Assembly (NCBI GenBank): GCA_045837725.1
Contig: JBEWZL010000102.1
Span: 248,001 to 312,000 of the forward strand
DNA: 64,000 nucleotides
From: Vermamoeba vermiformis
Lineage: Eukaryota
Reading direction: 5' to 3'
The position numbers and the translations under genes are program-made. The notes below the pieces were generated by a model, which was given only the letters and a program-made list of their open reading frames with translations, was not told the DNA's origin and did no database searches. Every line of letters starts with the position of its first letter. Positions within the stretch are counted from its first letter, which is position 1. Below are positions 47,997 through 49,762 of this stretch, piece after piece.

Positions 47997-49762
47997 ATGG
48001 GCAACCCTGAGTCGAAAGCCGCCGGCAGTAAGGGTCCTGGCACACCTAGAGAGCCTCCAAAACCTGAACCGGTCTTTATGGAATACGCAGAACATGGAAT
48101 TGTTGGGCGAAGACCCACGATGGAGGATGCGCATCTCTTGGAAGCGCCTTGGGGAGACGATAATACAGCGATCTTTGGTGTATTTGATGGACATTTTGGA
48201 ACCAAATGCTCGGAGTTTGTAGCACGAAAGCTTCCAGAGGTTTTGAAAGCTCATCCCAAATTCAACGACGACGTTCATCTAGCATTGAAAGAGTCCTTTT
48301 TGCACGTTGATAAAGAATTCCTTAAGCAAGCATCAGCTGAAAAATTAGGAGATGGATCAACAGGCATTGTAACACTGATAAAGAACGAAAAGATTTATTG
48401 CGCCAATACAGGAGATTCGAGAGGAGTTCTTTGTGAGGGTGGAAAGACAGTTGCATTATCAGAGGATCATAAACCAGAAGTACCTAAGGAACTCGCAAGG
48501 TATTTATTTACAGGAATATCTATAATTATATACCATATTTTTTAATTTTAATAATGAATGCGGTTTGCTTTGGTGGTCTTTTTTCGTAATAATCAGAAAA
48601 TATATTATTTTTGAAGCGCATAGAATAATATTTCGGTTATTATTTGGTTAGATACGACCATTATCGAATTTTCTTAACCGCATCTAAAAACATAAAATAA
48701 CGGCAAGTTAGCCGACGGATTAAAAACACATAATAACGCATTATATTATTCAAGAATCGAACAAGCTGGTGGAATTATATTATTAGGACGTGTGCAAGGC
48801 AAATTAGCTGTTGCCCGTTCTTTTGGCGATCTGGATTTCAAAAACGAACAAACATTAGAAGCTAAATGGATCACTGCCGAACCTGATATCCTTTTAATTG
48901 TCGTGAATAGTCATATTACTAATTTCTTATCGACTGATTATTATTTGACCAATTTTCGATCCTTAACTCGGATTCGTACATATTTTAGAAGTGCCACTCA
49001 CCACCGACACCGAATTTATATTGCTCGCATGCGACGGTCTATGGGACAAATTTTCAAACGAAGAAGCAGTCGAATTTGTGCGCAAAAGAATTGAAACAAA
49101 TGTACCGACACTGGAGATTGCCAAGCAGATCGTGCAAGAGGCGTACAATCTGGGCTCGACGGACAACATCACCGCGGTGCTGGTCGTGTTCAATCACGCG
49201 ATTAAGAACAAGTCCATGCGCCGCGCTGGAGCTGTGGCTGAAGTGCACGGTCACGCTACCCGCCGAGAACAACACCAATGTGGCACAAACACCGAGCAAG
49301 AAGAAGGACAAGACACCAAAAAAAGAGCCAAAAGGCGTGACTAAGACCGCTGCTGAGCCCCCTCAAGTGATCCCACCCAAAAAGGACCGCACTGCCAAGA
49401 CCACCACTGGTGATAAGCCTCGCACGCCACGCGGTGAAGCCAATGAAGCCTCAAAGCCGCACAACGACGAGCCGAGTCAATCGAACACTTCTGACGAGAA
49501 AAAAACCGAGCTCGCCTCGCCGAAGAGCGACAAGAGTCTATCAAAGGAGTCCTCCACTGGCAACGACAAATCACCGCGCAAGCACAAAGAGCACAAAGAC
49601 GACAAAGACAAGAAGAAGCACAAGCGCGATGAGAGCAAGGCATCGAGCTCGAATTCCAGTCCTGCAATGAACGTCTCGCGCAGCAACCCGGATGTGGCCA
49701 CTGCTGAAGATGTTAAGCGCAGCAACAGCGCGTCGGATAGTATTGGTAACGACAAGTCATAA
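47997..49762 (+). CDS. Protein phosphatase 2C (PPM) with N-myristoylation-like MG start
   Basis: GRRPTMEDAH, FGVFDGH, ANTGDSR, LAVARSFGD, LACDGLWD, GSTDNIT. The catalytic frame stops at 49344; the charged tail continues in +1 frame to 49762. Confidence 0.92.
48886..48979 (+). other. U12-type AT-AC intron
   Basis: 5' ATATCCTTT, branch TCCTTAAC 48960-48967, 3' AC. Removal restores EPDILEVPLT. Confidence 0.92.

What the first reader, a model, noticed from the sequence alone, without database searches (positions are those of the whole stretch)
48886..48979. Canonical U12-type AT-AC intron implies a minor spliceosome
Seen: a 94-nt insert in PP2C starting ATATCCTTT, with TCCTTAAC 12 nt before a terminal AC. 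Excision is needed to keep frame (TAEPD-ILEVPLTTDTEFILLACDGLWD). Established: these are the U11/U12 recognition consensus sequences, and the minor spliceosome is patchily retained in protists. Inference: this genome encodes U11/U12/U4atac/U6atac. GT-AG gene finders would mis-model this gene. It is the only such intron I found in the window. An in-frame AG lies 9 nt downstream (48988) as a possible alternative acceptor.
Basis: partly seen in the sequence, partly recalled or inferred. Interest (0 to 1): 0.75.

Follow-up and report, generated by a model that had tools for sequence, protein, structure and literature searches.

The report
Minor-class intron in a Vermamoeba amoeba
A phosphatase gene of the common water amoeba Vermamoeba has a rare 'minor-class' intron that is cut out exactly as predicted, and the genome carries dozens more plus most of the RNA machinery for them, which extends a known ancient splicing system to a branch of amoebae where it seems not to have been recorded.

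Summary
Window 48886-48979 is a 94-nt phase-1 intron (ATATCCTTT...TCCTTAAC...AC) in a PP2C gene. Contigs from 4 of 4 public runs (four studies) skip exactly 48885^48980, and no GT-AG reading gives the same mRNA. Window proteins fall in EukProt clusters labelled Vermamoeba vermiformis (Amoebozoa, Tubulinea). The genome holds U11, U12 and U6atac above Rfam cut-offs. It also holds at least 75 more exact-consensus U12-type sites: 23 AT-AC and 52 GT-AG, controls 0. U4atac was not found in five genome searches, the same gap reported for Acanthamoeba and Physarum. Minor-specific proteins were not tested. The alternative AG at 48988 was not seen in use. The minor spliceosome is ancestral and known in Discosea and Evosea. 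I found no report for Tubulinea, so this is a new, expected member of a known kind. Side finding, 24 kb beyond the window: a U4 snRNA copy beside U11 is split by a 70-nt GT-AG insert that looks like a major intron (no RNA test); the review I read lists only fungal snRNA introns and none in U4.

The parts
47997..48499 (+). PP2C exon 1 (coding from ATG 47997)
   Evidence: Pfam PF00481 E 2.6e-30; 118 of 126 aligned residues identical to EukProt V. vermiformis P0140; covered by contigs of 4 of 4 runs
48500..48754 (+). Intron 1, ordinary major-type GT-AG, 255 nt
   Evidence: Skipped in 4 of 4 runs, ends GT..AG; 26% G+C
48755..48885 (+). PP2C exon 2
   Evidence: 42 of 43 residues identical to P0140; covered by contigs
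48886..48979 (+). Intron 2, U12-type AT-AC, 94 nt, phase 1
   Evidence: Joint 48885^48980 AT..AC in 4 of 4 runs; frame restored only by removal
48886..48894 (+). U12-type 5' splice site ATATCCTTT
   Evidence: Sequence; +4 to +10 pairs with the 5' end of this genome's own U11
48960..48967 (+). U12-type branch site TCCTTAAC
   Evidence: Sequence; pairs with this genome's own U12, -10.6 kcal/mol duplex; branch A at 48965 or 48966 is inferred
48978..48979 (+). AC 3' splice site
   Evidence: Used in 4 of 4 runs
48987..48988 (+). In-frame AG, possible alternative acceptor (would drop D-I-L)
   Evidence: In frame; no joint listed in 4 runs; the Asp lost is nearly invariant among 10 homologues
48980..49762 (+). 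PP2C exon 3, coding part, with lysine/serine-rich tail; one extra base near 49257 shifts the frame in the window only
   Evidence: PF00481 E 2e-16; all 4 runs lack one base at 49257; P0140 matches frame A to residue 263 and frame B from 268 to 430

Best explanation
A genuine U12-type AT-AC intron, removed by a functional minor spliceosome in Vermamoeba (Tubulinea). Shown: the exact AT..AC junction in transcript-like contigs; U11, U12 and U6atac genes; complementarity of this intron's 5' site to the genome's U11 and of its branch site to the genome's U12; a genome-wide set of at least 76 such introns of both subtypes. Inferred from the established mechanism: the U11/U12 di-snRNP binds the 5' site and branch site together, a U4atac/U6atac.U5 tri-snRNP joins, U6atac/U12 form the catalytic core, and the AC 12-14 nt past the branch A is chosen by distance. 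U6atac here is the 'CC variant' (GCCGA in place of AAGGA), as in Acanthamoeba and Physarum, so the textbook U6atac/5' site pairing is weak or absent. U4atac most likely exists but is too diverged for the model (inferred). The system is most likely inherited from the last eukaryotic common ancestor rather than newly gained (inferred).
For: Junction in 4 of 4 runs from four studies, with zero depth in the bins inside both introns. Both EukProt V. vermiformis transcript proteins read TAEPDILEVPL. U6atac E 2.5e-11, U12 E 2.6e-12, U11 E 5.3e-12, each over its cut-off and none over the cut-off in 14 control genomes. Alignments keep the U11 5' end, the U12 branch-pairing region, Sm sites and the U6atac T-run; U12 folds at z -2.35. 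26 AT-AC and 55 GT-AG pattern matches (23 and 52 distinct 5' sites) against 0 and 0 for the reversed pattern. In 50 of these 75 examined, the best open frames on the two sides agree in 38 (about 17 by chance), and phases 0/1/2 are 11/26/13, the low phase-0 share described for minor introns (PMC10639083 passage). 21 of 44 loci scanned have a Pfam hit beside the intron, 6 with hits to the same profile continuing across it; hosts include E2F, a formin FH2 and a RasGEF, families listed as minor-intron-rich in human (PMC6865273 passage).
Against: U4atac not found: no RF00618 match at E<=1 (only 50 of 1827 candidates scored), and none of the pattern hits (7; 17; 3) or 55 (76, all screened) looked like U4atac. 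Minor-specific proteins were not tested. The runs are labelled 'RNA?' by guess and are contigs, not reads. Expression of the snRNAs is not shown. Which spliceosome cuts this intron is inferred from sequence, not from inhibition. Phase calls rest on a longest-open-frame heuristic and a few look wrong (e.g. L163, L169). Some of the 75 sites are near-identical pairs (L007/L020, L021/L029, L172/L178, L176/L180, L161-L163) that may be alleles or recent duplicates.
Confidence: 0.95

Rival explanations
1. A minor spliceosome removes the intron but has no U4atac: one of the four divergent major U4 copies chaperones U6atac. This is a variant of the best explanation, not an alternative to the intron being U12-type.
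For: No U4atac in five genome searches or in 70 kb around known snRNA genes. Four divergent U4 copies exist, one 312 nt downstream of U11. Their 5' ends form a stem II with U6atac at -14 to -19 kcal/mol. Olthof et al. raise this possibility for non-opisthokonts (PMC11347168 passage).
Against: The same U4 copies pair far better with the major U6 (-26 to -31 kcal/mol), and none is adapted to U6atac. U4atac is routinely missed outside opisthokonts at strict thresholds and found at looser ones (PMC11347168 section 17). The assembly may be incomplete, and a U4atac with an intron or a changed Sm site would escape my patterns.
Confidence: 0.12
2. The intron has U12-like ends but is cut by the major spliceosome, and the minor snRNA genes are relics.
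For: U2-type AT-AC introns exist (recalled). U4atac is missing and U6atac lacks AAGGA.
Against: Perfect 5' and branch consensus in at least 76 introns with 0 control matches. Three snRNA genes with intact pairing regions and flanks like those of the U4 genes. The CC variant of U6atac is shared with other species held to have a working minor system (PMC2396436 section 16).
Confidence: 0.03
3. Not an intron: a strain-specific 94-nt insertion flanked by an ATAT duplication, or a template-switch artefact in cDNA.
For: ATAT stands at both ends, so the joint can slide by 4 nt. The runs are only guessed to be RNA.
Against: The same contigs also skip the GT-AG intron and cover only the transcribed span; four studies agree; no unspliced contig was laid; the insert carries both U12 signals at the right spacing.
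Confidence: 0.01
4. The main product uses another junction: the AG at 48988 (AT-AG) or a GT/GC-AG pair nearby.
For: The AG is in frame; ten in-frame GT/GC-AG pairs exist on paper.
Against: Only 48885^48980 is seen. Every alternative deletes or inserts residues in the conserved core. The 3-residue difference between the two EukProt isoforms lies in the tail, not here.
Confidence: 0.01

Closest known systems
Minor spliceosome and U12-type introns of Acanthamoeba castellanii (Discosea)
   Same: U11, U12 and U6atac found, U4atac count 0; CC-variant U6atac; canonical 5' and branch signals (PMC2396436 passages, section 16 and supplement passages).
   Different: Different major clade (Tubulinea). At least 76 exact-consensus sites here against 12 introns classified as minor in Acanthamoeba (PMC10639083 passage); the methods differ, so the comparison is rough.
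Minor introns of Protostelium aurantium (265) and Pelomyxa schiedti (90) (Evosea)
   Same: Comparable order of magnitude; U11, U12, U6atac reported for Protostelium/Planoprotostelium.
   Different: Different clade; intron positions not compared.
Expanded minor system of Physarum polycephalum
   Same: Amoebozoan; CC-variant U6atac; no U4atac found.
   Different: Physarum has thousands of perfect 5' sites of which only 20 of 3,648 keep the classic branch motif (bioRxiv 2020.10.12.336362 passage). Here the classic branch motif is kept; 1 candidate in 194 kb of tiles gives no sign of such an expansion, though my patterns required the classic branch site.
Human/plant U12-type AT-AC introns (e.g. 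E2F family)
   Same: Same consensus; about 31% AT-AC among exact-consensus sites here (24 of 76); an E2F gene carries an AT-AC site (L004).
   Different: Introns are very short (63-94 nt); U6atac lacks AAGGA; position-level conservation not tested.
mRNA-type introns in fungal U6, U2, U1 and U5 snRNA genes (for the side finding)
   Same: GT-AG insert with a branch-like CTAAT inside an snRNA gene, with intronless paralogues (PMC5855946 passages).
   Different: Here in U4, in its 5' stem-loop, and in an amoeba; the review lists no U4 case and only fungal ones. Splicing not shown.

Membership tests
U12-type (minor) intron | 5' splice site RTATCCTT(T) | tested here: met
   ATATCCTTT at 48886
U12-type (minor) intron | Branch site TCCTTRAC about 10-20 nt before the 3' end, no long pyrimidine tract | tested here: met
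   TCCTTAAC at 48960-48967, 12 nt to the intron end; range recalled
U12-type (minor) intron | Removed from the mRNA at the predicted ends (AT-AC) | tested here: met
   4 of 4 runs, contigs; no GT-AG slide; P0140, P0156
U12-type (minor) intron | Removal depends on U11/U12/U6atac | not testable with these tools
   Needs knock-down; only complementarity shown
U12-type (minor) intron | Position conserved as minor intron in other lineages (supporting, not required) | tested here: inconclusive
   80 PP2C loci of 32-44% identity, 79 continuous across the site, but the set is biased to intronless matches and holds no orthologue
Minor spliceosome | U11 snRNA gene | tested here: met
   G000:C102:335923-336049, 72.8 bits, cut-off 39
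Minor spliceosome | U12 snRNA gene | tested here: met
   G000:C260:488843-488986, 69.8 bits, cut-off 53
Minor spliceosome | U6atac snRNA gene | tested here: met
   G000:C146:77204-77311, 54.8 bits, cut-off 33; CC variant
Minor spliceosome | U4atac snRNA gene | tested here: inconclusive
   Not found (and screens 30, 34, 35, 40, 43, 57, 61, 65, 83); the model search scored 50 of 1827 candidates; also not found in Acanthamoeba or Physarum
Minor spliceosome | Minor-specific proteins (RNPC3, ZCRB1, SNRNP25/35/48, PDCD7, CENATAC) | not tested
   No search of the genome for these families was run
Minor spliceosome | A genome-wide class of U12-type introns, low in phase 0 | tested here: met
   23 + 52 distinct sites, controls 0; phase 0 in 11 of 50
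Spliceosomal intron in an snRNA gene (side finding, U4) | GT-AG insert with branch motif whose removal restores the snRNA | tested here: met
   70 nt, GT..AG, CTAAT about 23 nt from the end; 69 of the first 75 nt match the intronless U4 after removal
Spliceosomal intron in an snRNA gene (side finding, U4) | Spliced RNA from this copy exists | not tested
   No reads were laid on this locus

The most novel reading that the evidence does not exclude
Vermamoeba runs its minor spliceosome without U4atac, borrowing a major U4 paralogue to chaperone its CC-variant U6atac, and one U4 gene, lying 312 nt behind U11, must itself be spliced by the major spliceosome. A culturable amoeba would then show a hybrid spliceosome and a splicing-dependent link between the two machines. 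The U4 insert being a real spliced intron is, on its own, much more likely (about 0.7) than the U4-for-U4atac part.
Probability: 0.12. Interest if true: 0.75.

Novelty: new member of a known kind. Interest (0 to 1): 0.35.

Why it matters
It fills the Tubulinea gap in the map of minor-spliceosome retention: with Discosea and Evosea already known, all three main amoebozoan clades would keep it, and losses in Dictyostelium and Entamoeba are late. That is the expected result, so surprise is low. In practice, GT-AG-only annotation would mis-model two dozen or more Vermamoeba genes with AT-AC introns. The amoeba is easy to grow (recalled), has single-hit U11, U12 and U6atac genes and very short minor introns, so it makes two open questions testable: what replaces or hides U4atac outside opisthokonts, and how the CC-variant U6atac works without AAGGA. 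The intron-split U4 gene, if spliced, would extend snRNA introns beyond fungi.

Tried and rejected
U4atac: Rfam model, no match at E<=1. Stem I + Sm patterns: 7 hits, control 5, and 76 hits, control 23; all screened for stem II pairing with U6atac, best -21 kcal/mol in a stretch with no snRNA features; two of the 76 were the U4 copies. Stem II pattern: 17 hits, control 23, two of them U6atac's own other strand (7 loci rescanned with Rfam). Combined pattern: 3 hits, control 3, none supported. 70 kb around known snRNA genes gave only U1, U4, U11, U12, U6atac. A pairing scan over the 584 kb (with overlaps) held at that point gave nothing convincing. Intron position in relatives: the one metagenome scan returned 80 distant, almost all uninterrupted PP2C loci, uninformative. 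Alternative acceptor 48988 and ten in-frame GT/GC-AG pairs: not seen; the two EukProt isoforms differ elsewhere. No RNA family in the window itself. No run was on record as RNA: no RNA holder listed. Introns in U6: none seen in the one main copy and three weaker copies I read, of 7 matches. Earlier scan notes held nothing on this genome or on minor introns in amoebae.

Full report
Observation. The sequence at 48886-48979 is as described: 94 nt, ATATCCTTT at the start, TCCTTAAC at 48960-48967, AC at the end, 30% G+C between exons of 41% and 51%. It splits an Asp codon (phase 1) of a protein phosphatase 2C (Pfam PF00481 on both sides). Removal restores the frame; retention ends the protein at 280 residues before the C-terminal catalytic motifs. 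The 5' motif alone is expected once by chance in 64 kb; the joint motif appeared in 1 of 300 shuffles, and no second candidate lies in the window.

Splicing is shown. Of 24 runs listed, 20 hold part of the stretch and none is on record as RNA. I laid 4 of them, from four studies. All 4 have contigs that skip 48885^48980 with ends AT..AC, and also skip the ordinary GT-AG intron 48500-48754; depth is zero in the bins that lie wholly inside intron 1, and cover runs from near the ATG into the 3' end. These are contigs, so they show presence, not frequency. An ATAT repeat lets the joint slide by up to 4 nt, but no placement gives GT-AG or GC-AG. No joint to the AG at 48988 was listed. Using it would drop three residues including an Asp that is nearly invariant among 10 homologues. 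Two EukProt transcript proteins read TAEPDILEVPL across the site and differ only in the tail.

Organism. The window's proteasome subunit Rpn3 is 97% identical to the representative of a cluster that holds a Vermamoeba vermiformis protein, and the best PP2C hit is itself labelled V. vermiformis (86-98% identity exon by exon). The window is therefore from V. vermiformis or a very close relative: Amoebozoa, Tubulinea (placement per PMC10980511 passages).

Machinery. The genome (43.3 Mb, 309 contigs) has one match each to U6atac (C146:77204-77311, 54.8 bits), U12 (C260:488843-488986, 69.8) and U11 (C102:335923-336049, 72.8), all over Rfam's cut-offs and with no control genome over them. This intron's 5' site pairs with the 5' end of that U11 and its branch site with that U12. 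U11 and U12 have flanks like those of the U4 genes: by eye, a CCCA(C/T/A)AA-like element near -60 and an A-run followed by G-runs downstream. U6atac carries GCCGA where most species have AAGGA; Davila Lopez et al. describe this 'CC variant' in Acanthamoeba, Physarum, oomycetes and others and note that it cannot pair well with the 5' site (PMC2396436 section 16). U4atac was not found by the model or by four pattern searches built from this U6atac (every hit screened). That matches the literature: U4atac count 0 in Acanthamoeba and Physarum (supplement passage), and none detected outside opisthokonts but for one oomycete at strict thresholds (PMC11347168 section 17). The four major U4 copies pair with U6 at -26 to -31 kcal/mol in stem II and with U6atac at -14 to -19, so none is adapted to U6atac, but substitution is not excluded. 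Minor-specific proteins were not searched for.

The intron class. Strict patterns with 30-60 nt between 5' site and branch site gave 26 AT-AC and 55 GT-AG matches, against 0 and 0 for the reversed patterns. After dropping three alternative-end duplicates in each, 23 and 52 distinct 5' sites remain; the PP2C intron (spacing 66) comes on top. This is a floor for exact-consensus sites, though several are near-identical pairs that may be alleles. Spacing peaks at 45-54 nt and tails off by 59, so most exact-consensus sites were probably caught; my guess for the true total is 100-200. I examined 50 of the 75 (all 23 AT-AC, 27 of 52 GT-AG): lengths 63-86 nt; best open frames agree across the site in 38; phases 0/1/2 are 11/26/13 by a heuristic that errs in a few cases. 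I scanned 79 of 90 flanking pieces (44 loci) against Pfam: 21 loci had a hit, 6 of them with the same profile continuing across the site; hosts include E2F, myosin, Prp18, a B-family DNA polymerase, a class II tRNA synthetase, SNF2, VPS9, RapGAP, RasGEF, Piezo and a formin. E2F, diaphanous formins and Ras/Rap GEFs are named as minor-intron-rich families in human (PMC6865273 passage), which fits inheritance; positions were not compared. The one metagenome scan for PP2C relatives gave no orthologue with an intron.

Mechanism. Shown: ends, removal, three snRNA genes, complementarity, a genome-wide class. Inferred from the established pathway: U11/U12 recognition, U6atac/U12 catalysis, choice of the AC by distance from the branch A, and a diverged U4atac. 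Not shown: snRNA expression, proteins, dependence on the minor machinery.

What is known. Minor introns and snRNAs are documented in Acanthamoeba (12 introns), Pelomyxa (90), Protostelium (265) and Physarum (PMC10639083 passages; bioRxiv 2020.10.12.336362 passages), with losses in Dictyostelium and Entamoebidae. I found no report for Vermamoeba or Tubulinea: 0 papers hold 'Vermamoeba' and 'U12'; of 25 papers holding three of six terms, the 20 listed hold neither 'minor spliceosom' nor 'minor intron'; 0 hold 'minor spliceosome' and 'EukProt'; Vermamoeba is absent from the text and the one held supplement of the pan-eukaryotic survey and from the text of PMC11347168; the Vermamoeba and Echinamoeba genome papers have no 'spliceosom' in their text. 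I did not see the survey's FigShare species table or the supplementary tables of PMC11347168, one supplement of PMC2396436 could not be searched, and most subscription papers are outside the library; any of these could hold a record. So: a member of the known class, in a clade where it was expected but seems unrecorded.

Side finding. The U4 copy 312 nt downstream of U11 (G000:C102:336361-336561; L003 1939-2139), 24 kb past the window's end, differs from the intronless U4 on C56 by one clean 70-nt insert in the 5' stem-loop (L003 1966-2035). It starts GTAAG, has CTAAT about 23 nt from the end and ends CAG; without it 69 of the first 75 nt match, stem II with U6 is kept (-27.7 kcal/mol) and the flanks resemble those of the other snRNA genes. 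It reads as a major-type intron in an snRNA gene. A review lists such introns in fungal U6, U2, U1 and U5, not U4 (PMC5855946 passages); two searches listed no paper whose title or abstract start reports a U4 case (listings only). Unchecked notes of this scan report U4 introns in fungi, in stem II. No RNA test was made, and a pseudogene is possible.

Verdict. Real, spliced, ordinary in kind; modest novelty from the lineage, with two leads (missing U4atac, intron-split U4) worth a follow-up. Interest 0.35.

Noticed in passing
L003:1939-2139 (G000:C102:336361-336561), insert L003:1966-2035: U4 snRNA copy split by a 70-nt GT-AG insert with a branch-like CTAAT, in the 5' stem-loop; three other U4 copies are intronless. 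Looks like a spliceosomal intron in an snRNA gene outside fungi. Not tested on RNA.
   Followed up: partly
window 49257: One extra base in the window, absent from 4 of 4 runs; it shifts the PP2C frame. The transcript protein continues in the frame ending at 49762 (about 470 aa in all, with a lysine/serine-rich tail). Probably an assembly error.
   Followed up: yes
L001:1501-1608 (G000:C146:77204-77311): U6atac is the CC variant (GCCGA for AAGGA), as in Acanthamoeba and Physarum.
   Followed up: yes
L003:1501-2139 and L239:5274-5907: snRNA genes lie in tandem pairs: U11 then U4 on C102, U4 then U1 on C56. By eye they share a CCCA(C/T/A)AA-like upstream element and an A-run plus G-run 3' box.
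   Followed up: partly
L034, L035, L036, L037; L030-L033, L038-L040: Four divergent U4 copies (53-83 bits) and seven U6 matches, three of them divergent in the 3' part; possible snRNA isoforms or pseudogenes.
   Followed up: partly
L161, L162, L163 (G000:C30:415327-422948) and G000:C306:70934-82523: Tandem gene families each carrying related GT-AG U12-type sites, i.e. minor introns multiplied by gene duplication; L176, L179, L180 and L172, L178 look similar.
   Followed up: no
L169:1501-1580: A GT-AG U12-type site near the very end of a ubiquitin-like coding frame that resembles UBL5/Hub1 (name recalled; Pfam gave only ubiquitin).
   Followed up: no
window 47997-48120: The PP2C begins MG with a proline-rich leader of about 41 residues missing from the EukProt protein's start; several homologues also begin MG, a possible myristoylation site (inference).
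   Followed up: no
G000:C49 and C202; C18 and C97; C3 and C221: Near-identical stretches on different contigs turned up in several pattern searches, so the assembly may hold allelic duplicates that inflate counts.
   Followed up: no
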